Assembly (NCBI GenBank): GCA_910592345.1
Contig: CAJVPI010000127.1
Coordinates: 1-50,946 of the forward strand
Origin: Paraglomus brasilianum
Lineage: Eukaryota
Direction: 5' to 3'
DNA: 50,946 nt
Below, piece by piece: positions 4,800 to 38,209 of this stretch (its first letter is position 1; every line of letters starts with the position of its first letter). The notes below the pieces were generated by a model that ran no database searches, was not told the DNA's origin, and saw only the letters and a program-made list of their open reading frames with translations. The position numbers were made by a program, and so were the translations under genes.

Positions 4800-4852
4800 T
4801 CAACAACCCAACGTGTACCTAAATAAAGACCTCGAAAACTCAACAACCCAAC
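4800..4852 (+). mobile_element. micro-insertion copy 1 (27-bp insert, 13-bp TSD)
   Basis: TCAACAACCCAAC (4800-4812) + GTGTACCTAAATAAAGACCTCGAAAAC (4813-4839) + TCAACAACCCAAC (4840-4852). Confidence 0.8.
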
Positions 4853-6441
4853 TATCTCAACCAAGTTGATTGTTGGCAACGTTTGTTACATGCCAGAGTT
4901 TCCATCAATCAAGGTTTGTCCGACTACTATAGCTCCTCAACTATCAACGTTTAAGATTCAAATCTTCTTTATTCAGCCTTCTTTTTTTCCTGCCAAGAGT
5001 AACTTCTTAAAGTTTGCAATTTCATATTTAACTCCTCTTGTTGCATGTAGAACGAAAGACTGTCAATAATAATATTATTAATAGCTTCTGATGATACCTT
5101 TCTCACTTTCTCCAGCAATTAAGTAATTTCCTTTTTGTTAGACGAGTGATTTTACATTGACTATTATTCGCTAAACGTACATTGGGATCTTGTCTGGAAT
5201 ATATCTTAAGCATTTATATCTTTCTATGCTATTACAAATATATAACAATTAAATAAGAACTTACAGCACTTCTAATCTAATCACTACTCTTAATGGCCTA
5301 TTAATATATATTTAGGCAATTAATAACACAAAGACAAATATTAAATAAACATATCGTCGAAAGTCAGGTTCACCTGGTACACAGTAGCATATATAAAATA
5401 TTTAATGCCTATTATATATTATATCGTAAATATTATTTCGCTAATGAAGGTTAGGTTCGCCTCAATATTAATATTTTTCTTTTCACTGTAATGCTTCTAT
5501 TGAATTTTCATCAAGAGTATCCGCATTTCACTTCGTGTCTCTATGGCTCCTGCAGATAAGTTCCGAATAGTTTCTCTCCAGATTTTTTCTTCGAAAACAA
5601 AAACTACAAGAGTGTAGAACTCTCCCTGCCTCCCTCATTTAGCATCCTGAGGTCGGCCAATACTCTACTAACATTTTTGGCATGGGTTTCCCTTCATTGA
5701 CAAAATAACTTAAACAAAACAATGATAAATCCACAAACCTTTGTTGTATCGAACGAGTATCAACCTTCTAATGAGTATATTTCAGCTTATTATTCGAATA
5801 TTTGTTCTTCATTTTGATAATACAGTAATATCCCTTGCTGTCCTCTACTGGCTACTCGAAAACCAGACTTTGCATTTATTGCTAAAGATGATCCTCTAGG
5901 CATCGTGTGTTGTGAGAAATAAGGAAACGATCTGGCACTAACGCAGATATAGGACACGCTATATCATTCGGTGAAAAGGTCCTCGGCGAGCCTATGTATA
6001 CGTGATTTCCGTGCTGCAACGGTCCGTATTTGCATCTGTAATAATAATTAGGTGCGACTCTAATAATAGTGACAACTTACCCAGCAGTTGGGTGGAAGTA
6101 CCTAGTAACGATTATGGGATGTGACTCTTCTGCTTTACCTTCATAATAATATAAACATTAACATTCTAATCATTCTTTAATAAGTATTAGTATCCTTAAT
6201 ATTAAGCTTAAAACTAGTTCTAGCGGTTGACCGCTATATTGTTATTATTGTTATAAACTCGGAGAATGTTCCTCCGGCCTATCGACAATTGACTCCGAAG
6301 CGATTGTGTGATTATAATAATACAAATAAAAACTACTCCGGCAACGTGATCGAAGTCCATTACACAGAACTGGGCACAGAAATAAATGACTGCTGTGCAT
6401 CCAGACTTTGGCAGTTTGACATATACTCTACTCTCTTCATT

Positions 6442-8831
6442 ATGGAACCAAAGCTAATTGAGCTTACTTCCTTATCCAAGAAGGCCCTGTCTTTTAGCGA
6501 GACTTTGTGCTCCAAGGCTGAAGCTCTTATAAAAGACTGCAAAACTGATATAGACAGTGTGGAAATAATATACCCCAAACTGCGCTTTCTTTGGTATGAA
6601 CTTCAAGTTCAGGCAAAGGTGCGTTGACTGAAAACAAACCCTCCGGTAATGGTTCTTTTTTATACACCTTTCGCACTAATCTACTTTCCTCTTCCAGTCA
6701 CTTGACAGGTTGAAAGAAATTGCGATAAATCAAACCAATAGTTTGAAGCTGTATAATTCTGTAGGTAAAAATCATTCTATTACAAAAGCTCGCTGTGGTA
6801 CCTTCCAAGTTACGTGCATGCTAAACCCCTTAATCTTACATAGAACAAGGAGAAGCAATTGGCTGCTATTTACGAAGAGCTTGATAAGGTCTTGGATAGT
6901 TTACGCAATAAAATTGTAAATCCCGCGATACGAAAGAGCGCATTAACATTAGATGACGAATCGGTGGATAATCCAGAGGCCATGACAAAGGGCATAGAGG
7001 GCGAGCGGACTGAGCGCGAAGGGAATGATAAGGTGTCTTTATACGATTACATTGATGAGATTAGCGTGCAAGATTTGAAGCGCAAAACGCAAGAGGAGGT
7101 TACAAACATACAAGTAAGCCCATAACTCATATGATCTCTCTAAAATGAGAATATAATACCGATTTCATGCAGTCTCGTATTATCTTGGCTGGGTATTGAC
7201 TATTTTAACCTTTATTTAACAAAGCAATTCCAATCAGTCAGCTCCAATATTGTCACTCAAATTAGCGCCCATATTAGCCACTTTCGTACACTCTTCAATA
7301 ACTGTCCGATCGATCTTGAAGAGTCAAGTGTTGCATTCCTTCAAGAAAAATCGTCCATACACGAACAAGAAACCAAGGTTATGGCTGAGAGTCTACTTTC
7401 TTTAGCTAGACACGATGAACAAGTCAGCGCAGCATTGAAGTAAGTAGTGAATATTCTTTATATTAATTTGATTTGGCAACAATGGAATGTGTGCTGAGGG
7501 GTTTGTAAATACGAGGTTAGCTCATTTCTTTGGGTTTATTGCGTAGATCTTGTCAATCAAATGCTGAAATGAGTTTACAATTAGACATTTCTGGTATGCA
7601 TGATTCATATTTTCTTGGTGACATGCTGTCTTTTTTCACAAGATATTGATTATGAAATTTTTGTGGGTTAGTTCTTGAGAAAGATACGCGAGAACTGCCA
7701 ACGGTGATTGAAGAACTGAAGGAATCACTTCAAATCATAAAATCAACAAGGTCAGTAATTGTCATTATTTTATTAGCCACTGTGGGAAAAAAAGGCATCA
7801 ATTTTAACTTGGTATCGGGCATAATAAGTAGTTTAATTTTATGTATATTGAAGCTTGACCATTTTTTAGTATTGCTTAATCTTTTTTCCTTGATTGTAAC
7901 TAGTGAAGAGATAAGCGTGCGGAGTCAGGTGTATAATGCATCATATAATGAAGCTGTTAAAGTATTCGACGAATTGGACGCATTTGGAAGTAAAATGGAA
8001 GAAATTGTCGCTGCAATCAAAGCCAATGAGGTCGGTTTTAATATACATTTGACTCTATCGTGTAATATTGAATGTTATTTAACATTAACCTAGACATATA
8101 ATCACTTTTCAGGCTGACTTTGAGAAAGGACGTATTATTGTTGATCGCTTTATAGAAGAACTCTGGAATCTTATTGGATGGTACGTGAATTAATTTGATC
8201 TGGATCTTAAATACCTAATATTTTATGGCTAATTTTTATACGGATTGAATAGGTATGAGGAGTTTTTGAAATCATACGATTACTTGATTATCGAGATTGA
8301 TCGGCGTCAGTGTGTGGGAGAACAGCATATTAAATTGGCAGACGAGTTCTACGCCAAGCTAGAAAGTCTCTATCTGGGTAAGTTTTACTTGGATGAGTTG
8401 TTTTGATGAAATAAGTAAATAATACCATGGTAACCGTCTGGCTTTGACACTGTATTAGAGGAAACACAGCAGAGGAATTTATTCTTCCAGATGCATGGAC
8501 AATACATACCAATGGATTTATGCCCTCCAATCCAAGTATGATAAAGTGATACTGTTGAACCAAACCATATTTTATCTTTTCTGCACAATAACATTAAAAC
8601 TCTGAATTTTTATTCACTCAGGAGCAGCCAATAAGATACGAAATCATTCCTCAAACAAGTACAAAATTACCTACAATTCCACCAAAGGCGTTGGCTGAGG
8701 TAAGTTAGCAAGTGTAATAGCATGACACAATCTAATCAAGCTCGTATAAGACTAATTGTTCTGCAACTGATCATAATCATTTTTAACAGGCTCAGGCTAA
8801 TGTAGACAAATATAGATCGAGTGCACAGTAG
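6442..8831 (+). CDS. ATG17: autophagy-related protein 17, about 12 exons
   Basis: Spliced product MEPKLIELTSLSKKAL...SLYDYIDEISVQDLK...MAESLLSLARHDEQV...WYEEFLKSYDYLIIEIDRR...RNLFFQMHGQYIPMDLCP matches Atg17 family motifs (LxDFID; MAxxLxSLxxH; YxxLxxExxRR; GxYLPxDL). Canonical GT-AG introns; TAG at 8829-8831. Confidence 0.85.
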
Positions 8832-9322
8832 GCTAATGTATAGGAAGCCTCTGGTAGGAGTTTTTTCTAAACAATTGGTATTGAATGCCGGGTTCCGTTG
8901 TTATGCTTTAATGGAATCCATAGCTTTTGTGTCACTAATTATAAGTCTACAATCTTTTTTTGTATTCGTTCAGAGAACAAGTCGCACATTATGATGACGC
9001 CTCATAATCAATATTCCAATATTATGTTGAACAAGGTAATAATATAGTTATCAACACTCTTTGAACACATTTGTTATTTAATAAGTAGTTCTTTATATTG
9101 TACATGCTATTGTTGACACATTCTATGTCTATGAAATGTTATGAATAATATTCAATAGACTGAAATTCTCTGAACATTTATTCTTTAGGGTGCACTCCTC
9201 CCCAGCGCACTGCAGATTGCATAGCCGGCCATAACGAATAATAACAAAAGGTTACGTTGTTATTATTCCATAGTACTTTCCGTCCTCCTTGATAAATAAA
9301 TATATTGTCATCTAATTTTAAA

Positions 9323-11684
9323 TTATCGTAAATCAGCAATTCGTAAGTCTAGGTTTTTGTTAATAACATGTCCATTTTTAGATATGTCCTGAAAATAAAA
9401 AGAAAATGTAAGCGACTGTGATATAAGAGTATATACATCGAAAAGAATATATTTGCAATCGTTAGATACCACAAAAAGTTCATCTTCTGCGTGCGGATGG
9501 AATCCTCTCTTTGTACATTTGATTACAGCTTGAAGTCCAGGTGGATTAGAAAGACGGAAAATACGGATGCTAGAAAAATCAACTGCATTTAGGATTATTC
9601 ACAAATATAAGCAGGATATTCAAACGTCAAAATGACAACATACTCGTTGTACTTTGGTGCACAGACAATAGCAATGGCTTCTGGAATGCCCCATTGATAG
9701 GATGAGTGAGTATGCAAATCTATCGAACTCATAAAGCATGTTTGGGTGGGATGGGTCTAAAATGAGGAGAAATAATGATTTGTGAGTTATTTGGAATTAA
9801 CACGTTGATGATTATCCGCAACTCACATGTATCCATCCTAACGTCAGTTCGTTCGGATTCACACATTCAAGGAGTTCTTCTTCGTTTATCATGTTGCAAC
9901 TGTCTGAAGTAGCAGTTTGCTTGGGAATTATTAAAGACGTGATACAGAATGAGTTGTGCGACTGGAAAATAATAAAACATTCTGTCAGTATGATCGAAAG
10001 TCGTAAAATCTGGTAGATTGAACAATGATGGTAGTAATTTTTTACCAAAGTTCCAACTAAAATACCAAGAGTTTCCAAATTATTTTTTGTGTTCTTTGCG
10101 GCGATTTTTAAGAATTCCCTGGTCAACTTGGATGGCAAATATATTGTTCGTAGACCTTCTCCGCCTTCCGTATATGCCTTGTAATCTACCTCTGCAATAT
10201 AAACATTACGTATGAGCACAGTCCAACGTTGCTAAAACAGATATCTACTTGAACCGGACAGTTTTCTCGTACCTTCGACATAGCCGTCTTCTATCTTTCC
10301 ATCTACTTGAATCTCTGGTTTAACTTGGAGCGTAGCCGCAGAAATTGTGTTCTTATCGTCCATTGTATAGTTTTCCAACTTTGGTGGTTTAGGTGGTCCG
10401 TGAGGCACTTTTGGTGGCAGCCGTGGAACAAAAACGTCCGCGTCTTCAACATCATGTGGCAACTTTGGCGGAATAGCAGGTGGTGACTTTGATGGTGGAG
10501 GAGCAACTAATTCCGGCGGCACCGGTGGCAGTGCTGGTGGCGTAAAAGGCGAGGGTCGATCGTTGAGACCAGTATATGAATACCTATTCGTGAAGCGGTA
10601 TTGGTGGGTTGAGCCCAATACGAAAGAAAAAGAAGAAAAAAGTGAATGGTAACAGATTGAACTGCCTACCCGTCACTTTCATTTCTTAGTGATACAGTGG
10701 GATATTCTACTTTCTGAACAGATCGGTGAAGATTGTAAGTCAAGTGTATATATAACAAACGCTCGTGATCCGCACATGCTTACCGTAGTAGCTCCTGGCG
10801 CATTTCGTTTCGAGGATCTAAATTATAACACAATTGAAAGACCAGTTATGGAGAAAACCATCACACATTATATAATGTAAATCGCAAATAAAGCACGCAA
10901 AGGATACAAATTGTTCGAACTGTATTCGCTGTAATTTTCTTTTTCAGTCCGCAGTTTATTCATTTGATTTATCAAAGACCATTCTTCAACCCTTCTAGCA
11001 GACATTTGATCTGCTTGCTGGGTATGATCTAATATTCTTGCTTCCTTTTGCCTCCTCGCACGTTCTTCTGCTTCCTTCCGATGTGCTCTTTTTGTCGCTT
11101 CCAGTTCTGCTCTCATCTGCTCTTCGCGCATATGTTCAAGCTTTGGTTTGAGAATTGCCATTTCTGTAAGTACCTTATCCGCTTGCTAGAATCAAATAGA
11201 ATGTAAGCGCTTCTAGTCGACCGTTAATATTATCATTCCAAAGTCGTCACAAATAACATAGTTTACCCTTTTCAAGTCGGCTATCATTTTTTTGCTCTCC
11301 GGTTTGTTATACTCCGGGTGTGCTGGCAACTTGTCAAGAGTGATTCTAGTATCATTAATATCTGCAGATCAATATTCAAGCTCTCCAAAATGCTTAAAGA
11401 CTAACTGATTAAATTCTTACACGGCAAATTTCATATAAAATTTGAATGCGTTAAGAACATCTTGTTCAAGTTTATACTGTTCCGCCTGAAGGAGCAGTAA
11501 GCACGTTAAGTAATGGAAGTCCAGAGAATTATACAAAAGTGCTATAATATACCTGTCGGAGAACACTAGATATTGTCCGTAGATAGATCTTGAGTGCAAT
11601 ATGCGTGTGCAATTCAAGCTTTGAGGCTTCTGCTGAGATCTCTTTTATGGTGGGTATTCTTTTGGTGAGCGGAGCCGTCGACAT
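9323..11684 (-). CDS. STAMBP: AMSH/STAMBP-like JAMM (MPN+) K63 deubiquitinase, multi-exon
   Basis: N-terminal USP8-dimer/MIT-like region ([16 protein letters not shown]...[10 protein letters not shown]...KLPAHPEY), a proline-rich linker, and a JAMM domain ([14 protein letters not shown]...[11 protein letters not shown]...[22 protein letters not shown]...[10 protein letters not shown]...GFHPH). ATG at 11684, TAA at 9323-9325. Confidence 0.95.
10818..10907 (-). other. candidate U12-type (minor spliceosome) GT-AG intron in the AMSH gene
   Basis: 5' splice site GTATCCTTT is the U12 consensus. Branch-like TTCTCCATAAC (consensus TTCCTTAAC) lies about 28 nt upstream of TTTAG. Removal keeps the frame ([14 protein letters not shown]). 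Confidence 0.75.
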
Positions 11685-11871
11685 TTTGTAAGATTGTTAT
11701 AACAAGTTTAATTATAGTGGAGAGAATCCGCTTGGTTATAGTTATTGTCATCGGACAGAATTACAGTGACGGGTATGTTACACAGGTGGTACCTTGCAAA
11801 CGCGTCCTAAAAAGGTACGCGAAGTAAGATATAATATTCTCCAACTATCGGTAACCGCTGAACTGGACACT
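11685..11871. promoter_or_regulatory. short divergent (bidirectional) promoter region between AMSH and Cnd1
   Basis: Only 187 bp separate the two head-to-head ATGs. Contains ACGCGT (11800-11805) and CGCGAA (11818-11823). Confidence 0.5.
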
Positions 11872-19134: not shown

Positions 19135-19549
19135 AGAGATTTTTGTTTTTATGAGGGGAAAAAAATTTTTTTTTTATTAATGTTTATAACAGTTTAGAAT
19201 GACAATACAGATAGGCATGGAACAGCTGTTTATATTTTGTTTGACAAATTGGTTCATTCTGGTCGTGTCAACTGACGAAGCTGCTCCTGAATAAGCACGC
19301 CTGTATATAATGATGAACCGTTATTTGAGAGGGGAATGGGGTACAGACGATTTCATATAGTCCTTGTCTTTTTACTTACCCATAGTGTATAGTGCTGGGC
19401 CATCCATCCGACACAAAATCTCTTGCATATCGCGTTTTTGATAGTGATCGAATGCAAACATATTTATTGCCTCCAAAAGCTCCTGGATATATAATAGAGC
19501 AGTATAGTTACACCCAAGCGAGCTCAATGGATGGCCACCTAGTCTCTTA

Positions 19550-20117
19550 CTATTTACTTACTGGCGATGGCGAATCGGGGTCATCTCCGAGCTTGTTTTG
19601 GTCTTTGTCGTCAGTGACTGTGGTAGTAGATTCGGATGGAAGAGATTCTACCGGTTGTTTGTTTTTTCCTTTATCCAAAGCCGGGTCATTTTGTGCGGTT
19701 GTATCTATTGTATCTATTGTATCTATTGAAGCGTCTGATACACAACCGTGTCAGAAATGCTACCACCGATACCATAATCAATGATCCCTTTGGAGACATA
19801 AAAAAAAACAACTGGTCATCTTTACCGGGAGTCTCGGAGTATGGTTTTGTTCTTATGTAATACATGCTTTTATACAGTCGTGGTGAGTCTACGAAAACGG
19901 CAGTCAGCTTTGTTGATCCTGGTTTTAGAAAATTTGCTGCTTCCTTTTTTGTTGGAAAGTAAGACACTAGATTCCAAGATGGATCGTATATGTATATAGG
20001 AACGCTGGACCATTTCATGTTCGGGTTGGGAATGCCCCCTAGCAAAACAATGGGGATGGACAAAGAGAAACAGCGATTATAATAATGTCGTACTTTGATC
20101 TCATTGGCGGACATCAT
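19550..20117 (-). CDS. small NUMOD1/IENR1 (homing-endonuclease-associated DNA-binding) domain protein, probably 2+ exons
   Basis: VPIYIYDPSWNLVSYFPTKKEAANFLKPGSTKLTAVFVDSPRLYKSMYYIRTKP fits the NUMOD1 pattern (VYvYD...li..FpS..eAa.fL...lyk.ky). A GT-AG intron 19735-19825 with a CTGAC branch joins it in frame to a low-complexity tail (DASIDTIDTIDTT...DKGKNKQP...SPSPVSK*). Start and end are uncertain. Confidence 0.6.
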
Positions 20118-22270: not shown

Positions 22271-22347
22271 GCGCGTTGTTCTTTGACTTTGTTGAACGAC
22301 TCCTTCTCTCTACACAACTCAACCATAAATCCTGAATAATTTCCAAA

Positions 22348-23122: not shown

Positions 23123-23182
23123 TAATTTCCATGTTTTTGTTTTTATTTATTAAATTTATATTAAATATTCAATACATACATA

Positions 23183-23753: not shown

Positions 23754-24128
23754 AATATCTTTTGTCCGATCACAACTGAACATGACAATTGTGCTATGAT
23801 ACAGTAAACTATGGCATAAAGACATGTCGACAATTGCGTTACATTTGTGGCAAAGTATTAAACTTGCATATTAATAAACTACTACCACTATTACTATCAG
23901 TGATTAAATAAATCTATCGTGAAAATAAAACAGGATTTCCTTAAAGGACGTGTTTAATTTAATCAATGAATAATTTACTTTTCGACTAAAAGTTATTGTT
24001 CGAGTAATAGTGTTGTTATCGTTGTCATTGAACGGAAGCGTCTGTTGAAGCATTCAAACATAAGCCAATCTGAAACTGTTGACACATATCACACAAAATT
24101 GTTTGCAGACTCGAATTTGATCAAACAA

Positions 24129-24188
24129 TCAAATATTATCACGTGCGCCTAAATAAACGACCTCGAAACCTCAAATATTGTCACGTGC
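24129..24188 (+). mobile_element. micro-insertion copy 2 (24-bp insert, 18-bp TSD with 1 mismatch)
   Basis: TCAAATATTATCACGTGC (24129-24146) + GCCTAAATAAACGACCTCGAAACC (24147-24170) + TCAAATATTGTCACGTGC (24171-24188). Confidence 0.8.
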
Positions 24189-24323
24189 TAGTCTTAATGT
24201 GGTACAACATGACTAAATTACATCACTTTCACGTGATCATAACTATAAATATTCATGAACAGCTGGCGCATATTATCCTTTGATACCTCTCTTATACATC
24301 TAATAATTCTAATATTCAGCGCT

Positions 24324-24954
24324 ATGACTTACTATGCACTTTATCGAAAAAGCAGGTGAGTTTCCAATGGTGTCTGGGGCGTGTTCCACAGAGCCGATTG
24401 AGTGACATGCAGTGAACTTGTAGTATTGGCATGGCTTTAACCGATTCGCTTGACGAGTTGATCCAGCTGGACAAGATCACTCCCCAACTAGCGTTGAAAG
24501 TTCTTGCACAAGTAAGTATATGGCACAAAGACGAGAAGATCTTGTTATTCTGGTTTACCTTCTGCCATCTGACCACCCCATCTATGCTTTTGCGAGACAG
24601 TTTGACAAGAGTATAACAGAGGCATTGGATTGTAGAGTAAAAACCCGGGCTACGTTCAAAGTATGTAGAAATCACAGTGCTTGCACTGTACGAGTCGTAT
24701 CCTGTGTTTCATACCGAATACGTATTTTGAGTTGTCTCTAGAATTATGAATGTTTTAGATGTACTATACATGTACTTTCTTCATCTTTTTTCAACTAACA
24801 GCAAGGAAGCCTGCGGACCTACCGTTTTTGCGATGAAGTCTGGACATTCATTATTAAAGATCCAAATCTCCGCATAGAGCATGAACAGCTCCAAGTTGAT
24901 AAGATCAAGATCGTGGCTTGTAGCGCAAAGAAACCTGGAGAGGCGGAGAAATGA
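24324..24954 (+). CDS. TOA2: transcription initiation factor IIA gamma (small) subunit, 4 exons
   Basis: [49 protein letters not shown]...[24 protein letters not shown]...[12 protein letters not shown] at 24952-24954. Confidence 0.97.
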
Positions 24955-26920
24955 ACCGGGCGTTTAATAAGTCCTGGCACGTGCGTTGAACTACAACTCT
25001 TGTATTAGAAATAAAATTGTTGTTTCAAAATATTAACTAGTATAATAAGGGCTAAATCGTGGTTAATGGTTGATGGACGATAGAGGTTATCATAATAAAT
25101 AGACAAAATTATGAACGTAAAGTATTCGCGAGGAAGTGATGGTTGTATTTGGTATTATATGCTAGGTAAATGCTATTACTCTCGCTTCTAACTTGTAATG
25201 GCTGATCAGGGGGTTGGCGTGCGGTAATTGTGTAAAACGTATTTAACGTAATCTTAATCGAAAGAGCGGTTGAACTTTTAAAGCAGACGTGTGGGAAGAG
25301 AAAATGTATAGATGAATGTATCTGCTGAACTATTCATAAGAAATAAAGATGCTATCACCTATAAAACCAGGTTCTTATAGAGCTTGCCAATTCATGTTTG
25401 ATTTTTGCTTCCTAACTCGTCTAATTGTGTATAGACGTCCATTATGTTTTATTATTATATACTCATGACTCTCATTGTATTAAGTGAATTCACCATAGTA
25501 TTATATAAGTCACTAAATATAGTAAATGTATTTTTCATTTGCTGGTTGTAAAACGACGCGTTAATCATAACGTAACGCGTCGAGATTTCTGACCTCGAAT
25601 AGGAAAAATTCTTTTTTGATCAACGAGTTTTGAAGCGCAGCAACATCATGATCAACAGTGTTATATTGAGCATGATCCTGAAACTATTTTTTATGTCCAA
25701 AATTTTAAAAGCTATGATGTTTAATTCCTTTTATTCTAATTTTTACGGCAGATTATTGAACAACCGGTTATTATGATACACAGTATGGTGCTATGCATTG
25801 CATGGCCAAATTTGCGAAATTCACGATACCCATTATCAGTTAATGTGCGTAACAATGTGAATGCGAATAAATCTCCCAATTGATGTCGAATTATTGCTAT
25901 GCATCTTAGCCGCGTGTGCGGTAACGTTTACGCAAATCACAGTGATGACCACACGAACGCGAACTTATTATTATTATTGTTGTCAATAAACCTTGTAGGC
26001 ATACTCGCTAGAAAACTAAGGCTTTTTAATATAACAATGTGAGAACTAGTCCCGGATAGCTGATTCTATAAGGTAATACAATTTTAAACAATGAATAGTC
26101 TGCGAATTCTCCATTTCTTTACGGCACAACGGAAAGATCATTAACAATATCAACCAAATAATTCATAAATCGACATCTATAGTCTAATGTTCCGTGTATA
26201 TATACGATATACGTTTATCGAGAATGTGATGGGCATGCTATGCAGAGGACTGGTATGGAGAGATCATAAAAACTGGAATTATTACGATTCATACTTCCAA
26301 ATATTACTTCGAGATGTTATTTTATTGGCCACAAGTAAATGCCAAGGCTGCTTTTATAGCAAGAAATAAAAACAAACAACAGAAAGAAAGAAAATCAAGT
26401 TTTTTCTCAGTAAAACTCAAACGATCTTTCCTATTTCTGATCCCGACTACTTACTGCTTACAGTGTTGATGCAGAAGATTTGGATCAGGAATGGACGAAA
26501 TCAAATGAAATATACCGTTTATCTTTTTATTTATTAATAATGCCGTTGTTTAGTCAAGAAAACCGGAGAATTAGATAGTGACGGGTTGGATAAAGGTCGT
26601 ATACCATCCATCGAAGTAGTTTTGCGCACTGCGATCGATGTCTTCATTTTTCTAACGTAATAATTAGCCACATAGATGTTCATTAACCGTTTCTAGATTA
26701 GGGCTAACGATAATGGGAAAGTATATTGCGTTCCCACCGCGCCTCTGAGAAAGTAGTATGCCAGAATATGTCATAACGTGGCTATCACAAGCGGTTAACA
26801 ATTGCGTCAGGACGAAGTAATATTTACGCAAAGAGATCGATATAGACGAGAAAATGATAAATTGGTGGCTATAGCTTCCCATCCTCCCACTCAGCGTTAA
26901 ACTAACAGGAAAAAAGAAAT

Positions 26921-28471
26921 ATGAATGGTAGAATACACTCTTCCCTAGTTATAGCTATATTCCTTTGCTTGTATGTATTCTGTTGCAACTCAAAGATGAC
27001 TGATGTAAATAGTAAGTTAATCTGCCGACTTGTTACTTTTATGAAATAACTTGGATTGACACTAAATTTAAAAACAGATCAAAGAGGCCCAGATGTCTGG
27101 TCTCCACGTGAGTTGAAAGAGTGGTTGGCCGAAAATAGAGTATATTATAAAGGAATCCCAGAGAAAGATGAACTAGTGGTCTTGGTGAAACGTCATTGGA
27201 GAGATACGAAACAAAAGGAAGACACGATTACGTCTTATGTTGATGAATTCGTGAAATATCTGGAAAGTTGTAAGTACCATACGTTGATAAGAGCGATCGC
27301 TTGTTCCATTATGACCGTTATTGATCATGCTACAATTTTGCAGACGCCACCGCGGGTAAGGAAGTCACAAAAGAAAATGCGAATGCATTAGCTGAAGAGA
27401 TTGCTAAAAACGCTGAATCAATACGAATTGGCTTTGGCATCACCGAGGATAAGATGGCATCAGTCTTTGATCAAGTAAAGTCTCGCATGTCGGGAGCCAA
27501 AGACGAAACAAGTAAGCAGATCAGCAGTACTTTCAATGATATCAGCCGATCATATGCTTCTGCTAAATCCAAGAGAGACGAGATAATAAACGAAGGGACA
27601 AAGCGCATCGCGGCAGACTACAAGAAAACAAAAAAAGTCTCTCAAGATACTATCCAATGGCTCAACGACCGAGTCGACGAGCTGAGTAAGGCTCCAGGAT
27701 TCGCCAAGTCGAGAGTCCAAACTCAAACTATACTTATTCTCCGCGGCATTGAAGAAAATCTGGTTTCTACCATGAAGACATCAACCAAAGATGTTGAAAA
27801 AATTGCCAATCAACTATCATCTGCACTTGGCGAACCATATGGAAAGACCAAGAATATATTCAAGCGTATCGGCAGCGGGATTTATAACACGATTGGTATG
27901 TAACTTTCCGATAAATGTTTCGAAACCCAAACATGGAAAACTGCTAAAAAAAAAAAAAAAACCGTTTGTACTTTTCTTTTTATATAAAGCTGGGACATGG
28001 CGTGCAGTTGTTTACGTCAAGAGGAAGGTGGTCGACGGAACGGAATACACGATAAACCGAATTATTGCTGTAAAGAATGGAGTAGCACATTTCGTTGGTA
28101 GGATTACGGGTAGAGCTAAAAAGACGGCTCTTGAAACCAAACAAGCTCAACAAGAACGATTTGCTTACTTGACCGATTACCTGCGAGACACTGTCAAGTC
28201 TTCTAAAGAGCCGATCGCCAAGGTATTGGCTAATGTTGAGAATCGAATTGTTACCACCGAGAAATTAACAAAAGATCAAGCGAAGGTTGTCCAGGAAACT
28301 TTGAAAGAGAAATTAGGTAACATAAAAGACGCAAAGGATTTGACCGAAGATCGTATAAATGATGCCATCAACGCTTTATGTAAGAAATTTACAAGCACTG
28401 GTGATGATAGATGTTGTGAAAAGTGTAAGAAGTATGAGCAAGTGGAACAGATCGTCAAATCGGAGTTGTAG
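26921..28471 (+). CDS. Ish1/Msc1-like (stress-responsive nuclear envelope/ER) protein, 4 exons
   Basis: N-terminal hydrophobic signal, then an Ish1-type repeat DVWSPRELKEWLAENRVYYKGIPEKDELVVLVKRHW, a helical body, and C-terminus KSEL*. Three GT-AG introns keep the frame. Confidence 0.65.
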
Positions 28472-28722
28472 TTGAACTGACATTTTAGTATAGCAGCATA
28501 GTATGAAAGTGTAATTAATTTACTTGGTGTGAAATCATATTTACCTAAATAAAATATTGCGTGATCTGTCAGCATCTTTTAACTTGCATTTCACACATGA
28601 CTGAGCCACTAATTTCATCGTTTTGCGAGTCGCGTGGTCCAACGTGATGTCGATGAGAGAAAATTATTATTGTCTAACGCTAAACCAAGCCGTTTATCTA
28701 AATTAGTCATTTCAAAAAAACG

Positions 28723-30313
28723 ATGTATGAAATATACGTGTGGGGAGAAAGCTTGGGATTGCCTTCGATAGATCCTGGTTGTCTGGCTATAATTTCGTAC
28801 TTGCAGCTGGTCGCACCCGGTGAATATGGTATAATAGAGTGTAATAATCCCAACGTGTCGATTACAGGTTAGTAAAATATACTCGGTCAGCAGTAAAATC
28901 TCTTTTTACATGCTTAGTATGTTGTGATTTTAGGGGAACTACCTCTTTTAAGAGTCGGTAGTGAATGGATCGCTGGTGTCGAGAATATAATCAAACATTT
29001 GAACAAAGAGGTATTATCATTGGGCCGTCCAAGTGGGGAGGAAATGCTCTCTTTTTTTTTTCATAACGTTTTAATTCAACGTGCTTCTCAACCAGGGTCG
29101 TGACGGTACGGATCGTTTAACTGATGTACAAAAGGCAGAAAGTCTTGCGTATGTCTTTGTTTAGCCTTAACCTGTTTGGCAAGACGCGATCAGCTATTTA
29201 ATTCAACCCGAGTCTCAAGCCTACCTCGTTTTTGCTTTAGATTTATGACTCTTATTCAAGAAGATGTCTATGACGCATTCGTGAGCTTTGAAACTGTTAC
29301 TCCATGGTGTTCTTGTTCACCATTACTTTTCAACTCTATGCACATTTTGTTGTGAATACGAGTGATGACAGATCTGACTATTTTATGGATAGCTATTCTC
29401 ATGGTATATTGATTCGAAGAACTATTCAGAGGTCATTCGGCCACTCTTTGGTAGACTTTTGCCGCTGAGTGTGAGATATATTATTCCTTCTCAAACGCAA
29501 AAAATGGTCGAGGCGAGGTTGGCGAGATACAAAAAGGCTTTCAACGGCGATGAGAAGCTAACTGTTCACGATACGAATGGTGTAGGTTGATGTGATGAGC
29601 GAAAGCTTTCTTAGGACGCCTTCTTACGATGCTTAAATGTTAAATATGGAGTAATTATGAGTAATCACAATTAATACTTTATTCAGATATACATGATGCA
29701 AAGGGATTTGTACGATATATTAACAAGGAAACTCGGAGAGAACGATTATTTTTTTGACGGCTCGTAAGTATAATCTTCTTGGCACGATCTAATAATCTTG
29801 ATAGAACACTAACCGTCATGCAGTACCCCAACAACACTAGACACGATAGTTTATGGTTATCTGGCCCTTCAACTATATCCCCGTCTTCCCAACCCAATTC
29901 TATCCGATATCCTTGAAAATGATTATCCTCGATTAAAACAATTCTGTGATCGGATGAAACATCGTTTATTCCAAGAACAGCTACCGATTATTCAAGCAGC
30001 TGAGCTGCCTTCAATGTTTACAGGATTGTTCGTATCGCCTCGTTCGTGGTTTACCAACACTTTTCGGGGCAAAAGAGATGACACGAAGATAGAAAAGTCT
30101 CAAGCTCAGTTGAACTTTGAGAGGAAAAGGTTCTATTCGATCGTCGGTGCAGTAATGTTTATGATTGTATATACCGTTTGGAATGGTATTGTTGTGATAG
30201 ATATAGTGGGCAGTGAAGATGAGGATGAGGATGAGGATGAAGATGAGGAAGAAGAAGATAATGAGGACGATGAGGAAGAGGAGGAAAAAGAGGGGGCGGA
30301 AGAAAGATTATGA
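28723..30313 (+). CDS. SAM37: metaxin-1 / SAM37 (Tom37) mitochondrial outer-membrane SAM complex subunit, about 7 exons
   Basis: MYEIYVWGESLGLPSIDPGCLAIISYL...NNPNVSITGELPLL (Tom37 N-terminal motif), GST-like C-domain (LGENDYFFDGSTPTTLDTIVYGYLAL), a C-terminal TM segment and an acidic tail. Confidence 0.88.
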
Positions 30314-31187
30314 TTTGTGTAGAGACGAATGAGTCAGACTGAGGACAAACTTAATTCATTCAAAATAAAGTAAAAATGAATAACAATTGCAACAAGATAT
30401 TTTCATTTCAACTCGCAATGTTTGTGGCATTTTCAGTTAAAACCATACTTGTAGAATACTCGACAATTCAATCTGTCGGCATGAGCTTTCGTCTGTAAGA
30501 ATTCGCGATAGCCATAATGCACATCACTTTATCGTTAATGTTTGATTATTGACTTTATTAAGACCCCGAGCGATCTTTGTAGATAAGCACCAAGACTGTG
30601 AAATAGAAGTACTTCGAATGCAACTTTTAAAGAGGTCGACATTATTAAGTGGTAGGTTTGTTTTAAACCTTTGAATATTGATGTAATACACACTGGACAA
30701 ATAAAAGTTATTTATAAACTTCAATGAGGACGAGTCGCGTAGATATTTACTCAATATCATTCATTATATGCGACAAATTCTTTTGCTAAACTGATTTTCC
30801 TGATTGATCGACATTCGTGCAACATTGCCAAAATTACGCAATTTAATCTCAAAGGATTTTGCTGGAAAGTTGTCTGAATTTATCTTCGCTTCAAGACTTG
30901 TAAAGCATTTCTTTGAGGGACCTTGTTGCAGCAGCAAGCTTTGAAGACTGATTGCTGTCTAGTTTTCATTTGTCTTACTCCTTTCCATGCACTTCTTGAC
31001 TTATTTTGTGAAACAAATAATCTAACACAAACGGTCTCATTACCTATTAGTAATGAGCTTTTGGTGTCATACTGAATCACGGGATCAATTTCAAATGGTT
31101 ATAAAAAACGGTTTTCTTTTTCTTCGCTCATTATCCGCAGTACCAAAAGCATTCTTCCAGTATTCCAGGGAGGAAAAAAATACTACC

Positions 31188-33671
31188 ATGTCAGATGAAA
31201 CAGCCACCCTCCCCCCCCCAAACTCAGTGCCTATGGAGGGTGAGGTATCCAACAGTCAGATAGAATTACCTGCTCATAATCAAGAGAAAACCGAAGCTCA
31301 AGAAAGTGTGCAAACGAATGATCAGTTACTTATACCCTCTACTTCAGACCCATCAACTCAATCGGTTGAACTGCCTCCTGTCCCTGTTAATGAGCCCAAT
31401 CATGAACATTTTACTCAATCGCCTTCCTATGTAGAGATAAAGCCCCCAGAAATAACCCATAATAATATCAATGTTGAACCTAGCATTAGTAATGATATAA
31501 CTAGTGTTTCATCAACCGTAAGCCAAGACACTGCTCAAATTGAGGTTACTGGAAAAGAGCCTTCAACCTTAGGTCAAGAGACAGTTCAAAATGAAGTTAC
31601 TGGGAAAGAGCCACGCAAATGGCGCCATCGTCGTTCACCTAATGATAAGAATGACAATAAAGCACCATTTAACTTACGCAGACTTTCTGATGCTGATTTT
31701 CAAGCTTTGCCTCCAGGGTCCCGTCTGTTCCTTGGGAATTTGTCTACTCATTCTACTTCTAAGAAAGAACTTTATGACATATTCTCGCCATATGGGGAGA
31801 TTTTGCAGATATCTATCAAAAATAGTTTTGGTTTCATTCAATACGATAATCCAGACAGCGTGGTCAAAGCAATTACTAAAGAAAATGGAAGAGTATTACA
31901 CGGGTTGAAATTAGGTGAGACTTTTTGTTAATCGCTATTCTATAAACGATCAATTCATTATTTACTCGATAATAAAATATCTCCTTTCCCTTCGTATGAT
32001 GTCCCCCCCCCCCCCGTATAGGACTTGAGATTTCATATGGTAAGCCATGGCATCATCCTCCACAGGGTGAGGGACCCAAACAAGCACATGCGCACAGGCC
32101 AGACAAGCATTGGGCTCAAAGAGGTTACAAAGATGAATGGTACGGAGGCGAGCGTGCCTTTTCTCCTCCACGTGGACACCAGATGCCTCCGTATACTGAT
32201 AGACGTTACGAAGAATATGAGCACCGACCAAACGAATATCGGCGTACTTCGTATGATGGTAGACCTGGTTATGAATACCAAGAACATAGAGAATACCGCA
32301 CACCTCCTGATTATCGCGAAGAATATAAGCCTGAACATGAATATCGACCTCGCGACGAGCGCGCCGGGTATCGACGAGGCGCCTTTCGTGAAGAGCACCG
32401 CGAAGAGCGATATCGAGCAAAACCTTACAGAGTCCCTTCGCGTGATTACGTCGATCGACGCCAAGGTCGAGAATATCCTCCATATAGGGGTCATAGTCAC
32501 GACGAGCCCGATGACGACTTTCCTTTACCAAGACGTCAAGGCAATGAGGTGCCCGAGTGTCAGATTATTGTGTTGGAAGAAATTGAACGGTAAGCATTCT
32601 TTAATAATTATCATATTATCACAAACTATGATTTGACACTTTTTTTTCTGTTGAATAGTAATTTTATATGGCAAGTTGAAACTGCATTCCGTGAAGCAGC
32701 CATTACTGTCCACATATTACATTTGTCAAGAAAGAAGCTCCCAATACCTGCAGTAATTCGTCAAATGATCGTTGAGGGTGTGCATGCTGTCATCTTCTTG
32801 GAACGTCATCACGAAATGACCGCACGTGTCAATATGCAAATCTTTGATCAATCGCGTGCTGCACGAGACAGCAATGTAAAGTATGATGGTATGTATTTTG
32901 CCCGTATGTTGGAAATAGATGTGCACTATCGCAATCTTTGTTGTTATAAACGACTGCTGATTAATCTTTGAAATTTACTATTGTTCAGAATATGAAAACA
33001 TTAGAATTGAGGAAGCAGTCGGCCTTCTACTTCGTGCCCGCGCCATGCAAAGACCCGGTGATATTCGACCTCCTGATAATTTGTTGCTTGGCCAGCCACC
33101 AATGCAACCCCCCCAAACAATGCCACTCGGACCTCAACCTGGGGGAGCCAACCCCAACCCAAATCTTCTGGGTAATGTTAATTTTGCTGCGTTGGCCAAT
33201 CTTCTCGGGAGCCTTCAACAGCAGCAGCCGGGTGCAACTGGCCAACCAGTGCAACCAGTGCCAATGATACCGCCAAATGCCATACAACCGCCAGGTTCTA
33301 TACAACCGTCGCAGCCTACAGGAATGTTGCCACAACAGCAACCGCCTAATATTGATGTTCAACAGCTTTTAAGACAGCTTGCTCCCCAGAATCCGGCTGT
33401 AAACAACCAACCATCATTTATGCCAGCTCCACATCCCATAGGATCGAACCTAGGATCGAACTTGGGTCCACCACCCACACATTTTAATCCTCAAATGGTG
33501 GGACAACCACCAAACGCTGTTCCTCCTAATACAATGCAACCTAGTATGTCATTGTCCCAGCAGACTCAGCATCCCACGTCAAATATTCCACAGTTTACAA
33601 CTCAAATCAATCCACCTACAAATGTGACTGATTTGATGGCACAATTGAACCAGTATAGCAATCAGCATTGA
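31188..33671 (+). CDS. NAB3: Nab3-like RRM RNA-binding protein with an NCOA5-like domain and P/Q-rich tail, 4 exons
   Basis: RRM SRLFLGNLSTHSTSKKELYDIFSPYGEILQISIKNSFGFIQYDNPDSVVKAI closely resembles the yeast Nab3 RRM. It is followed by an R/E/Y-rich region, then VPECQIIVLEE...RQMIVEGVHAVIFL, then a Q/P-rich C-terminus. Confidence 0.85.
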
Positions 33672-34736
33672 CATCTTGCCGATGATTGAGAAACACTCTT
33701 TCCCCCCTCCCCCCAACTTTTCGCTCGTTGTTCTTTTCATGCTCTGGTTATAGCATCCGCGTCTTATCTCTCTGTTGTCTGCAATTGGGTTGCGTATTAT
33801 CATCCGGATACTAAGTGGATGCATGTGTTGCTTTGCGTTTGCGCTGCATTTTGAATAATGAGTTCGTGTGAACCTGTAATACCGAAATGTAGATAGAATT
33901 ATTCTTTATTGTATAGGGTGCTACGTTATTGCATATCTAATTGCTTGCCAAGTTTAGTTGTCATTGCACGAATGGGTGATTGGACAGACTTTCCATACTA
34001 GATAATATTTCTTAGCTTGCAGACCCTTGATTCGGCCCGTTCGATTATTCCACCTACAATTTCATTCGTGCTGTCCTTTTCCTATTTCCTTCATATTATT
34101 CTCCCCAATAAATCCCCATTTGATCATCCGGTTTATGTACATAAATATATCCGCTAGCTTTGCGATACGTGACTTTTGTGTTCCTTTACGCAACGAAAGT
34201 AGGATCTGTCATAAGGTTATATAGCCGAGCCGACTAACTACATTCGTTCTACAATTAATAACCCTGAAAAAACGTATCCATAACAAAAATGCGATGTCTT
34301 ACTTCTTAGATGTATAGGAAGGTTGTACTAAAAATGTTTAGCAGTCTGAATTAAATAAAATAATTATTATTATACTCGTTTTACATAGAAGTCAGTAGAA
34401 TGTGATTTTCATGCCCTGTCGAATGAGTGAAAACTTTACAAAATGACCCTGTTCATTCCACGCATAAGATTTGATATAAAGTCGAATCACAATTTATTTC
34501 ATCAAAAGCAAAAAATGTGCCACCAAGAAATAGAAGAGTCTTTGTCTGGTGTGTATGATTGTTTGCAGATATCCAATGTTTCCATTTACGAAATGGAAGA
34601 CTTGGATGCGTTCCTACGAGTCAGCAGCCGCTATATTCACAACGATTAACTAACAAACAGCTGTATCGGCTTTTTGCCAACTGTTTAGATTGACATGCAA
34701 CGTATGCCATTATTATGACATGTGCCAGGATGATCA

Positions 34737-35864
34737 TCATTCTTCAAATGCAGCAGCTCGAATGATCTTTACATTATCTTTTGGTCTATGAATTGATCAT
34801 CTCGTATACTTTAGCGTCATTATATTATTGAGCAGAATCCATTTGTATCGCGCCTGACTTACCGATCATTAGAATCCGTTGCAACAAGACCCATACGCCT
34901 TACAATCTTTATGCCTTTGGAAACGCGGCCGAATATTGCGTGTTTGGCTTTTGTTGGAAGCAAAAGAAATTTAACATTATTTCCGCTAGCATTTTACATC
35001 GATTGAATATTAATATTAGCAATTACCATCTAGCCATGGTGTAGGTGCTAACGTGATAAAAAACTACAATAATAATCGATAGGTCGTACTATTAGTTAGT
35101 TCAAGACTGTGTGTGTTAATAAACAACCGCCTTCCCCATATGAGATTCTTGCCTGACTCCCGTTGGTATCGGGTCCCGAGTTTGCCATACTCAAAATTCC
35201 TGCACCTGTGTGCTTTAGATCAGGATGAATTTCATCTTCAAATTTGTCGCTATTTTATATAGACGGGAAATGTTAAATTTTAATATCTATTATAAATAGA
35301 CTTTGATCATGAGGGACGAGCTCTACGATACCCATAGATAGACGTTCCACCTCTTCCTGTGCCAGTGGGATCACCTCCTTGAATTACAAAATCCTACAAC
35401 GTGTCCAACCGCAAATAAGTATTCATAAGGATGGTCACCTGAAAACATATGACCATCAGATACTTACTGGAATAATTCTATGAAACTAAAGAATAGAGGA
35501 ATAAGTCTGCGTAATCAAGCCCACGAGTATAGCCTCCCTAGTGAATCTACTTACTATAACGTTGTTGTAACGACCACGTTTAGCCTACAAAGAAGATCGT
35601 TTAGTTAACGCTTTCGCGTTTTGCAAATCTGCAATTTTCACGTATCGCTATATCTTTCGAAAACGCTAACTAACCAATTCCCAGAAATTCTTACAGGTCT
35701 TGGGCGCATGGTCCCAATACAATTCGATGGTTATTTCCCCCTAACGGTATATCAGATGATAAAACAATTAATAATTCGGAAGCGTTAGAGTATTGGAAAA
35801 GAGTGACACTAACCATGGAAGTGTAAAGGATCACGTATGGTCGGTCAACTTCTTCATCAGCCAT
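34737..35864 (-). CDS. PPIL1: spliceosomal cyclophilin PPIL1-type peptidyl-prolyl isomerase, 9 exons
   Basis: Spliced product ...[115 protein letters not shown]...[11 protein letters not shown]. Absent from the ORF track because the exons are short. Confidence 0.95.
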
Positions 35865-36662
35865 ATTCTCTCGCTGTGACGAAACGAAACCTTGGAAATT
35901 TTTCCAGCTGATGATTTTTCGTAGTCGAAAATTTTGCCGATCATCGATCTGCTCTATGAAAATAATGACGATTGAAGTTTACTTGCAGCTATCGTTGTCA
36001 TTCAATATATATAAAATAAGATTAGGGGTGAGAAGGTCATAAAGAATCATATGGATGTCGCAATGTGAATGTTTCTTGCTATTACAACCGATTATTACAG
36101 TTTGGGTTTATTAGACCTCATATAATAGTAGTTTGTCAAAACTCAAACATACTGGCGTGGCAATATGATTCTATCGATGCAGTAAGATGCCTCAGCCAGC
36201 CGCCTGAAGAATGCATGTCAGAATGGGGTTTTATTAGAGGAACTACAACATTCTACAAACAAAGTTATCGAAATCTTTACTGCTCAATGAAATGTAAACA
36301 AGACGCTCTTTCGTTAGTCTCACTGATTTCTGGCGAAACTCATTTACTTTAGCTTATTTATCAATGAAGAGTTTGCCAGCGAACTAAGATATGGCGAATA
36401 CTTCAGGTCAGTTTATATCTTGAAGAACGCGATTATTTCATTAATAAATAAAATTTTATATCAGATTCGATATGTATTTATTCGCATTATAGTAAACATT
36501 TACTATATAGCGAGAGTCTTGATATTATGCAAGAAACCAGATCTTCCTGGGCCGAGAGATCGAAGTTTATCGTGATCAATAAAAACATGAATGTTAATAT
36601 ACGTAACCTTTTAACATTGAATATACTTCGATTATTGTGTTTCTTACCAAGCAATATTCAGA

Positions 36663-37321
36663 TTAATGATGATGTCCACCATCACCATCACTACCTACGA
36701 AAACTAGTTTGTATACACCACCGCACTCGGGGCATCTGTCAAATTCATGTTCTTTTTCCAATTTCAACCAGATCATCTCGTGCGTGTCGGCAGGGTAGCC
36801 TTAAATTTCAAAAAAATGAATGTTGGCTGTGCGAAAAGCAAACAACAGCAACATTACAATGGCCTCGCTTGTTTAATTCACTAACCGGTGCATCCAACAT
36901 AACGTTCAGGATCAACACTTTTGACGAGAATAGGATTGCTCTTAGTCCCAAGATGAGTCAAAAGCAGCGGTTTCATATCAAAAAATTCCTGTCCCTCTAT
37001 CTTAGCAAGTATTTCGGCTCTCTCGAGACCAGTCGCCTGCTCCAAATCCGTGGGAATGCTGTTTGGCTTTGCACCCGGGCCGATAAGGCTAGGCGATACG
37101 TCTATGAAAGCAAAAGCAAGACGAGTAACATAGATATGAGTAATATTAGTAAATAACATGTAATTATAAACGAGCAGGACTGAACCGGACAAGCAGCTGT
37201 TCATACCTCCCCTGCGAGCACCAAATACCGAAAATGATCGGATTACTCTTGGAGTGCGTGACTGAAATCTAAAGTTGTTCAGCGCAGCAAAGCCAGTGCG
37301 ACGAATAACTGTATGGAGCAT
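36663..37321 (-). CDS. COX4: cytochrome c oxidase subunit 4 (COX5B family, Zn-binding), 3 exons
   Basis: Arg-rich presequence, then PTDLEQATGLERAEILAKIEG...RYVGCTG|YPADTHEMIWL...RCPECGGVYKL. TAA at 36663-36665. Confidence 0.95.
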
Positions 37322-38158
37322 TCTATACAACAAGCCGAGGATAAAGGAATAAAAGTATAGTTCTTGTAGAGGGAATCGTCAGTAGTTTGTCAGTTATTAT
37401 TATTGATAGCGCAACTAAATAGACTTATCATTAGTGTAACATCTAACTGATTTTAAAATTTTTATTTCTAAATGTGACACGTATTATTATTACGCTGATA
37501 TAAGGCTACTGTATCCCCACAATGTTTGGTAACAGGGTTTTATGAAGTAAAGCGTAACTGCATATGCAGGCGGCCATTCTAGCCAGATATAGGAGCCAAC
37601 TATCGCGGGAGAGCGTTCAGTAATTGGCCTTGGGATTTAGCTCTTTCAATCGAGGCCTAGCTAACTTCTAAATCGATAATACAGTTAGTGACTTTATACC
37701 CTCATGCTTTCAGGACAATGCTAATATTAGATGAATTCTTTACAGGACGCAAATTTACGTTCATGTCTAATATCCTTGCTAGATTAACCTTTCAATTGGC
37801 AAATGCAATAAACATAATTATTCTAACGGATAATCTAACAAATAGCACGACAGACAAATAGTACGACATTTGACGTTCACGAAATAAAATCGTATTTTTG
37901 TTTAACGACAGAAGTACAATGATGATATTTGTTGAATTTGTTTATGAAAGAATCTTCGATTGGCAAATATACATGTCTAACTGTCGATGACTGATTAAAT
38001 AAATAAGAAAAGACGTATACATTTCGCCACTAACTGAAATGGTATCACCGCTTCTCTCTTTCCTTTTTTTTAACAAAAAAAAAATTACCGTTATGGCCTG
38101 CTTTTTATTGCATTGTTTGAGTTGGAAAAAAGCTTGCTTCTCTCCTTCTTACCAAGCA

Positions 38159-38209
38159 TCAAACTCCCGGAATCTAAATAAAGACCTCGAAACCTCAAAC
38201 TCCCGGAAT
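38159..38209 (+). mobile_element. micro-insertion copy 3 (21-bp insert, 15-bp TSD)
   Basis: TCAAACTCCCGGAAT (38159-38173) + CTAAATAAAGACCTCGAAACC (38174-38194) + TCAAACTCCCGGAAT (38195-38209). Confidence 0.85.

What the first reader, a model, noticed from the sequence alone, without database searches (positions are those of the whole stretch)
4800..38209. Family of ultra-short (21-27 bp) insertions with 13-18 bp TCAA-initiated target-site duplications
SEEN: three unlinked intergenic sites (4800-4852, 24129-24188, 38159-38209) carry the same core CTAAATAAA(C)GACCTCGAAA(A/C)C. Each is sandwiched between direct repeats unrelated to one another except that all begin TCAA (13, 18 and 15 bp). The right junction is fixed (...CGAAAMC|TCAA). 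The left junction varies: copies 1 and 2 extend to ACGTGYRC, which partly overlaps the TSD as microhomology. KNOWN: a fixed 3' end, variable 5' truncation with microhomology, variable-length TSDs and a nick-site motif at the TSD start are the geometry of target-primed reverse transcription by non-LTR retroelements (compare L1 TT|AAAA). INFERENCE: these are 3'-terminal stubs of a poly(A)-less LINE/SINE or other RNA with an AATAAA near its end and an ACCTC(G/A)AA-type tail that pairs with TCAA targets. Inserts barely longer than their TSD, at three per 51 kb, would be missed by standard repeat annotation and may be abundant genome-wide. Low-prior alternative: the reverse complement GGTTTCGAGGTCTTTATTTAG|GT resembles a spliced-leader exon (GGTTT...AG followed by a donor), and SL trans-splicing is not established in fungi.
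Basis: partly seen in the sequence, partly recalled or inferred. Interest (0 to 1): 0.9.

Follow-up and report, generated by a model that had tools for sequence, protein, structure and literature searches.

The report
Tail-only stubs of a fungal LINE
These three tiny insertions are the last 21-27 bases of a LINE jumping gene found in the same fungal sample, likely pasted in by its normal copy-and-paste route but stopping almost at once; they are an extreme form of an ordinary process, odd only in having no A-tail and in mostly landing at the letters TCAA.

Summary
In detail: three inserts of 27, 24 and 21 bp with 13, 18 and 15 bp target-site duplications (TSDs) starting TCAA. A metagenome scan gave 14 hits, 10 of them true copies. 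One runs 519 bp upstream through a 3' UTR into the end of an ORF that is 99% identical to an intact 1119-aa APE endonuclease-RT-zinc-finger protein, closest to human L1 ORF2p among solved structures. Runs of the window's best-holding sample carry this LINE end, with contig depth piling up in the last ~45 bases. So these are extreme 5'-truncated copies of an L1-like LINE, not a SINE or a spliced leader. Nine of 13 copies are 21-29 bp (6 of 10 among copies not picked for shortness); 0 of 13 have poly(A); 10 of 13 abut TCAA. Priming by RNA-DNA pairing at TCAA and a stall at a 3' stem-loop are inferences. No orthologous empty site was seen; a paralogous one is inferred for site 3. Similar stubs were noted in other genomes of this scan. 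Modest interest.

The parts
4800..4812 (+). Site 1, left TSD copy (13 bp, begins TCAA)
4813..4839 (+). Site 1 insert: last 27 nt of the LINE 3' UTR (equals L001 493-519, 2 differences)
4840..4852 (+). Site 1, right TSD copy
24129..24146 (+). Site 2, left TSD copy (18 bp); its last up to 7 nt also fit the LINE variants (microhomology)
24147..24170 (+). Site 2 insert: last 23 nt of the LINE plus one extra C (24 bp)
   Evidence: a soil run (X7) covers the extra C unchanged
24171..24188 (+). Site 2, right TSD copy (one mismatch to the left copy)
38159..38173 (+). Site 3, left TSD copy (15 bp)
38174..38194 (+). Site 3 insert: last 21 nt of the LINE (identical to L001 499-519), blunt 5' junction
38195..38209 (+). 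Site 3, right TSD copy
37593..38410 (.). Unclassified multicopy repeat that hosts site 3 (ends approximate); other copies appear to lack the insert
   Evidence: depth 13-73 in three soil runs against 0-5 elsewhere; loose ends at 37593, 38157, 38194, 38410

Best explanation
The three inserts are the 3'-terminal 21-27 bases of an L1-like LINE (APE endonuclease-RT-zinc finger ORF) held in the same fungal sample, flanked by 13-18 bp duplications, and were likely made by target-primed reverse transcription that stopped after 21-29 bases. Shown: identity of the stubs with the LINE's 3' end, the intact ORF, TSD sizes, fixed 3' end, no poly(A), TCAA at the start of most TSDs. [quoted passage not shown] The stubs are dead by-products with no function of their own.
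For:: 10 of 14 metagenome hits are true copies sharing the 3' end; 6 of those 10 have a full 15-17 bp TSD (L009 is cut by its contig end, L001 and L002 run off their contigs 5'-ward, L014 has none). L001 continues 519 bp upstream; L002 is identical to it over 122 bp. L001 1-273 is 99% identical to the C-terminal 91 aa of P0122. P0122 has Exo_endo_phos 4-240, RVT_1 510-727, zf-RVT 964-1032; catalytic-type residues N7, E38, D153, N155, D214, H240 and YADD 686-689 present (roles recalled from human L1 EN); human L1 ORF2p E 2e-65 versus R2 E 2e-29; two more full-length cluster members, 1115 and 1108 of 1119 identical (recent activity); runs X1 and X2 (one sample; each holds 0.85 of the window's sampled words) cover the L001 stretch in 30 of 30 bins with long pieces at 0-2 differences; summed depth about 2100 (X1) and 1200 (X2) over most of the ORF end versus 16600 and 13600 at 495-513; soil run X8 0-23 over 1-456 versus 146. 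TCAA follows the 3' end in 10 of 13 copies, 7 of 10 in the independent set (background 0.0072, binomial P 1e-13); bases upstream of the TSD show no clear preference (position -1: A5 C2 T2 G1). TSD 7-20 nt and premature second-strand synthesis as the source of 5' truncation: PMC7617806 (passages); TSD peak 14-16 bp: PMC2912911 (passages); 4-nt primer 'snap': PMC4014453 (passages).
Against: The empty paralogous site for site 3 rests on overlapping loose ends in different runs, not on one bridging contig. Summed contig depth is not a copy number and is inflated where contigs overlap (X1 also reaches about 6300 at 191-209). The full-length element's DNA, 5' end and any ORF1 were not seen. The stem-loop is weakly supported: z about -2 for 104 and 247 nt, -0.24 for the last 64 nt. 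The search pattern cannot see stubs under 21 nt, and 8 of the 10 metagenome copies come from one assembly. The one RNA-labelled run laid (X10, a guess) had 0 contigs on the LINE end.
Confidence: 0.93

Rival explanations
1. Same LINE and same TPRT, but TCAA is chosen by the endonuclease (a Tx1-like sequence preference) rather than by RNA-primer pairing, and the RNA simply ends at ...GAAAMC.
For: Tx1-group L1 relatives are target-specific (PMC3747384, PMC4014453 passages). TCAA is in both TSD copies, so it is genuinely target sequence.
Against: Conservation is only on the primer side of the nick, whereas human L1 EN reads across it (TT|AAAA, PMC7617806); TCAA also continues the tail's own repeat unit; sites are dispersed in unrelated DNA.
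Confidence: 0.3
2. The 21-29 nt pile-up is set by cDNA length (a general early checkpoint of TPRT or host repair), not by this element's RNA structure.
For: Seven earlier notes of this scan report L1-like stubs of 17-25 nt, mostly plus a short A-tail, in other genomes, similar in total length (unchecked AI notes). [quoted passage not shown]
Against: All 9 short copies end at L001 491-499, in or one base beside the predicted stem arm 492-501; a nearby UTR hairpin shows a two-sided change in variant contigs (426 A>G with 441 T>C), so the UTR does keep structure.
Confidence: 0.45
3. The stubs are a self-standing minimal SINE transcribed separately and moved in trans by the LINE.
For: Many copies are of similar length; two tail variants exist.
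Against: 5' ends vary over 491-499 and continue to 39, 61, at least 120 and at least 519 nt; no tRNA/5S head or other Rfam match; 21 nt cannot hold a promoter.
Confidence: 0.03
4. The reverse strand is a spliced-leader exon or a 5'-intact tailless retropseudogene of a small RNA, or a telomerase-templated insertion.
Against: The core is collinear with a LINE 3' UTR and ORF2; the base pair after AG varies (GT, GC, AT); no Rfam hit in the window or in L001, L005, L014.
Confidence: 0.01

Closest known systems
5'-truncated insertions of human LINE-1 (L1 clade, APE type)
   Same: APE-RT-zinc finger ORF2, TSD 13-18 bp (L1: 7-20 nt, peak 14-16; PMC7617806, PMC2912911), fixed 3' end, variable 5' truncation, occasional microhomology, dispersed sites.
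   Different: No poly(A) in 0 of 13 copies; target motif TCAA rather than TT|AAAA; most sampled copies are under 30 bp.
Grem-LINE1 of Mucorales (10.1101/706580, passages)
   Same: LINE1-like element of early-diverging fungi with AP endonuclease, RVT and zf-RVT domains and a poly(A) signal near the 3' end.
   Different: Grem-LINE1s are pericentromeric; these stubs lie between housekeeping genes. No direct sequence comparison was possible, and no named Mucorales protein is among the 120 listed homologues.
Zorro3 of Candida albicans (PMC3510499, passages)
   Same: Fungal L1-clade LINE whose target matches its own RNA end.
   Different: Zorro3 has poly(A) tracts and targets poly(A); this one has neither.
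Tx1 group and stringent-type LINEs with a 3' stem-loop (PMC3747384, passages)
   Same: Sequence preference at the target; predicted stem-loops in the 3' UTR; a short repeated unit at the end instead of poly(A).
   Different: Preference here is only about 4 nt and sites are dispersed; clade placement was not resolved.

Membership tests
APE-type non-LTR retrotransposon (LINE) | N-terminal APE endonuclease followed by an RT domain in one ORF | tested here: met
   P0122: PF03372 4-240, PF00078 510-727; linked to the tail through L001
APE-type non-LTR retrotransposon (LINE) | Fixed 3' end with variable 5' truncation | tested here: met
   13 of 13 copies end at the same base; lengths 21 to at least 519
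APE-type non-LTR retrotransposon (LINE) | Variable-length TSD, under about 20 bp | tested here: met
   9 of 13 copies have a full TSD of 13-18 bp; 3 are cut by contig ends; L014 has none
APE-type non-LTR retrotransposon (LINE) | Empty pre-insertion allele with one TSD copy | tested here: inconclusive
   No orthologous empty allele listed in 4 soil runs for sites 2 and 3; paralogous empty sites inferred from loose ends for site 3 and for L001
L1 group (L1 and Tx1 clades) | C-terminal zinc-binding domain (zf-RVT) after RT; RT closest to L1 | tested here: met
   PF13966 964-1032; best solved match human L1 ORF2p E 2e-65 versus R2 2e-29
L1 group (L1 and Tx1 clades) | Monophyly with labelled L1 or Tx1 RTs | tested here: inconclusive
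   Tree of 54 of 120 homologues: P0122 in a 100/99 clade of 34 unnamed metagenomic proteins; deep branches unresolved; no labelled clade references
L1 group (L1 and Tx1 clades) | ORF1 upstream of ORF2 | not testable with these tools
   No DNA of a full-length copy was obtained
Canonical poly(A)-type L1 (human LINE-1, Zorro3) | 3' poly(A) tail in insertions | tested here: not met
   0 of 13 copies
Canonical poly(A)-type L1 (human LINE-1, Zorro3) | TT|AAAA-type target | tested here: not met
   TCAA in 10 of 13; no preference seen upstream of the nick in 10 copies
SINE | Pol III head (tRNA, 5S, 7SL) and a defined full length | tested here: not met
   No tRNA or Rfam match; graded lengths running into ORF2
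Spliced-leader RNA | Exon found at mRNA 5' ends; SL RNA gene with conserved donor | not testable with these tools
   Only contigs were served; indirect evidence is against: donor varies and the sequence is a LINE end

The most novel reading that the evidence does not exclude
An undescribed lineage of L1-like LINEs in an early-diverging soil fungus has swapped poly(A) priming for a 4-nt UCAA:TTGA pairing, and its reverse transcriptase aborts at a 3' stem-loop so often that most insertions are 21-29 bp, adding about 35-45 bp per event at roughly 60 per Mb: a hidden, abundant mutation class and a natural read-out of the first two helical turns of TPRT.
Probability: 0.3. Interest if true: 0.55.

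Novelty: new variant of a known kind. Interest (0 to 1): 0.3.

Why it matters
Inserts barely longer than their TSD fall below the length limits of usual repeat annotation, so LINE activity and small structural variation in such fungi may be undercounted (3 in 50.9 kb is 59 per Mb, 95% range 12-172; one window, picked for this feature). Without a poly(A) tail the cDNA length can be read exactly, which makes this family a clean test of why TPRT aborts early and of how much the RNA end, rather than the endonuclease, picks the target. The process itself is known.

Tried and rejected
No whole genome is held, so no genome-wide census. Four of 14 metagenome hits were dropped as chance or unassignable before counting (L004, L006, L010, L013: no TSD, tail does not end in MC). 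Viral contigs: 0 pattern matches and no relative of P0122. Rfam and ARAGORN: nothing in the window or in L001, L005, L014. A fourth candidate at 4013-4022 (-) matches only 10 nt and has no TSD: rejected. A scan for shorter stubs with TC-starting repeats found only known copies. tblastn of P0122 against the window and 14 loci hit only L001: no LINE ORF in the window. Run X10 (RNA is a guess) gave 0 contigs on the LINE end, which proves nothing about expression. No joint across site 2 or site 3 was listed in runs X5-X8 (low depth, tables cut). The RT tree did not resolve the clade. Earlier findings by place and by sequence: none. Eight literature searches listed no paper on this family or on stubs of this size in fungi; the library lacks most subscription journals, and supplements of 10.1101/706580 (Grem-LINE1 sequences) were not seen.
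Full report
Observation. The three sites are as described: inserts of 27, 24 and 21 bp between direct repeats of 13, 18 (one mismatch) and 15 bp, each repeat starting TCAA. The 19-mer core has 2 gap-free matches at up to 3 mismatches against 0.03 expected, none of 100 shuffles reaching 2; site 2 carries one extra C. A 13-mer repeat in that position occurs at 3 of 20000 random window positions. No other copy, and no shorter one, was found in the window.

Host. The window is a whole contig of an early-diverging fungus: its 717-aa UTP4-like protein is 36-41% identical to the best Mucoromycota, Glomeromycotina and Basidiobolus proteins, with nothing closer listed; Pex14, COX5B, Ssu72 and RRM genes lie nearby. 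No genome is held. No tRNA or Rfam family is in the window.

More copies. One scan of metagenome contigs for the core gave 14 loci. Four (L004, L006, L010, L013) have no TSD and diverge right after the pattern; I dropped them. The other 10 share the same 3' end; 8 of them come from one assembly. Six of the 10 have a full TSD of 15-17 bp with inserts of 24, 25, 26, 28, 29 and 61 bp; L009 (26 bp of homology) is cut by its contig end 6 bases into the second repeat; L014 has 39 bp of homology and no TSD; L002 and L001 run off their contigs after 120 and 519 bp. With the window's three, 9 of 13 copies are 21-29 bp; among the 10 not picked for shortness, 6 of 10. The pattern cannot see stubs under 21 nt. 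None of the 13 has a poly(A) tail. TCAA follows the 3' end in 10 of 13 (others TCAT, TCTA, GCAT), and in 7 of the 10 independent copies against a background of 0.0072 (P about 1e-13). The base before the TSD shows no clear preference (A5 C2 T2 G1). Microhomology of 2 nt or more at the 5' junction is seen in 3 of 9 TSD-flanked copies (by eye); the rest look blunt.

The master element. L001 continues upstream through about 243 nt of 3' UTR into a 91-codon open frame that is 99% identical to the C-terminus of P0122, 1119 aa. P0122 has an APE endonuclease (4-240), RT (510-727) and zf-RVT (964-1032), with the expected catalytic-type residues and YADD (roles recalled from human L1). Its best solved match is human L1 ORF2p (E 2e-65; R2 proteins 2e-29 or weaker). 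Its cluster has 8 members, two more of them full length with 1115 and 1108 of 1119 residues identical, which suggests recent activity. Of 146 homologues of the RT region (120 listed), the nearest are unnamed metagenomic proteins. A tree of 54 of those 120 (109 aligned over 380 residues; I kept the top-ranked and the named ones) puts P0122 in a 100/99 clade of 34 unnamed proteins; deep branches are unresolved and no labelled L1 or Tx1 references were available. The HMMER search of representatives with the 91-aa end gave 8 hits.

Link to the window's organism. Runs X1 and X2 (one sample, each holding 0.85 of the sampled words of window 33000-42900; possibly the window's source, so not independent support for the window itself) cover L001 1-560 in 30 of 30 bins with long pieces at 0-2 differences, and an X1 contig runs on upstream into zf-RVT coding sequence (table 7; read by eye). 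Summed depth is about 2100 (X1) and 1200 (X2) over most of the ORF end and 16600 and 13600 at 495-513; soil run X8 gives 0-23 over 1-456 and 146 there. This fits a strong excess of short 3' copies, but summed contig depth is no copy number and rises where contigs overlap (X1 about 6300 at 191-209). X10 had no contig on it.

Empty sites. Laying four soil runs (2 studies) on window 23900-38600 showed no joint across site 2 or 3 (depth 1-5, tables cut). X7 covers site 2's extra C unchanged, so that insertion may be shared by another strain. Site 3 sits in a multicopy repeat (about 37593-38410, depth 13-73 in three runs). Contigs of other copies leave the window at 38157 (X5, X7) and rejoin at 38194 (X8) with overlapping loose letters that are not the core, which points to paralogous copies with one TSD copy and no insert; no single listed contig bridges it, so this is inferred. 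Likewise L001's LINE interrupts a DDE_1 (pogo-like) transposon whose uninterrupted relatives appear as loose ends at 524 in X1 and X2.

Mechanism. Shown: LINE 3' end, TSD, fixed 3' junction. From established work: L1 ORF2p nicks the bottom strand, primes on it, nicks the top strand to give 7-20 nt TSDs, and a premature switch to second-strand synthesis would give 5' truncation (PMC7617806, passages); TSDs peak at 14-16 bp (PMC2912911, passages); the last 4 nt of the primer matter most for pairing with the RNA (PMC4014453, passages). Inferred here: the primer end TTGA pairs with UCAA at the RNA end, since TCAA continues the tail's own repeat unit and conservation lies only on the primer side; if the RNA is polyadenylated below its AATAAA, priming at the body/poly(A) joint would explain the missing tail (fifth base A 7, T 5, C 1). 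All 9 short copies start at L001 491-499, in or beside the 3' arm (492-501) of a predicted stem (z -1.99 for 104 nt, 7 of 200 shuffles as good; z -1.98 for the whole UTR; z -0.24 for the last 64 nt). A hairpin at 424-443 shows a two-sided change in variant contigs of X1 and X2 (426 A>G with 441 T>C), though one X2 contig also has 427 G>A, which breaks a pair. A stall at the stem is therefore plausible but weakly supported; a length-based cliff is about as likely, since seven unchecked notes of this scan report 17-25 nt stubs, mostly with short A-tails, from other L1-like LINEs.

Comparison and verdict. It works like L1 and is an APE-type LINE of the L1 group by domains; it fails two features of canonical poly(A)-type L1 (tail, TT|AAAA target). 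Grem-LINE1 of Mucorales has the same ORF2 domains (10.1101/706580, passages) and Zorro3 is the fungal model (PMC3510499, passages); stringent-type LINEs have 3' stem-loops (PMC3747384, passages). Eight searches (listings only for papers not named above) showed no description of this family. The SINE, spliced-leader, tailless-pseudogene and telomerase readings are rejected because the core is collinear with a LINE 3' UTR. Verdict: real, well explained, an extreme variant of an ordinary process; interest 0.3.

Noticed in passing
window 37593-38410: Unclassified multicopy repeat of about 820 bp between the COX5B-like and UTP4-like genes (soil depth 13-73 versus 0-5); it hosts site 3 and ends in a short hairpin-like stretch near 38390-38410. 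Class not determined.
   Followed up: partly
window 26110-26153: A 44-bp segment present in the window but skipped by contigs of three soil runs (X5, X6, X8), with no TSD and no likeness to the LINE tail.
   Followed up: partly
window 48310-50928: Cluster of direct and inverted repeats (e.g. arms 48458-48479/49011-49032, 49389-49427/50890-50928); part matches L008 at 70-72%. Likely decayed DNA transposon or MITE pieces.
   Followed up: no
L001 520-1106: The long LINE copy interrupts a broken pogo-like DDE_1 transposon.
   Followed up: partly
L001 424-443: 3'-UTR hairpin with a two-sided change in variant contigs; variant tails lacking the G of the first repeat unit also appear as loose ends at 511 in X2 and X8, suggesting subfamilies.
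   Followed up: partly
window 19686-20117 (-): 143-aa ORF without a Pfam match; by recall it resembles the C-terminal part of fungal mitochondrial intron endonucleases, so possibly a NUMT fragment. Not tested.
   Followed up: no
window 38530-40683 (+): Intronless UTP4-like gene only 36-41% identical to its best listed homologues: the host seems to be a poorly sampled early-diverging soil fungus.
   Followed up: no
P0122 clade: A well-supported clade of 34 unnamed metagenomic APE-RT-zf proteins with several subfamilies; their 3' ends and stub lengths would be a natural comparison set.
   Followed up: no
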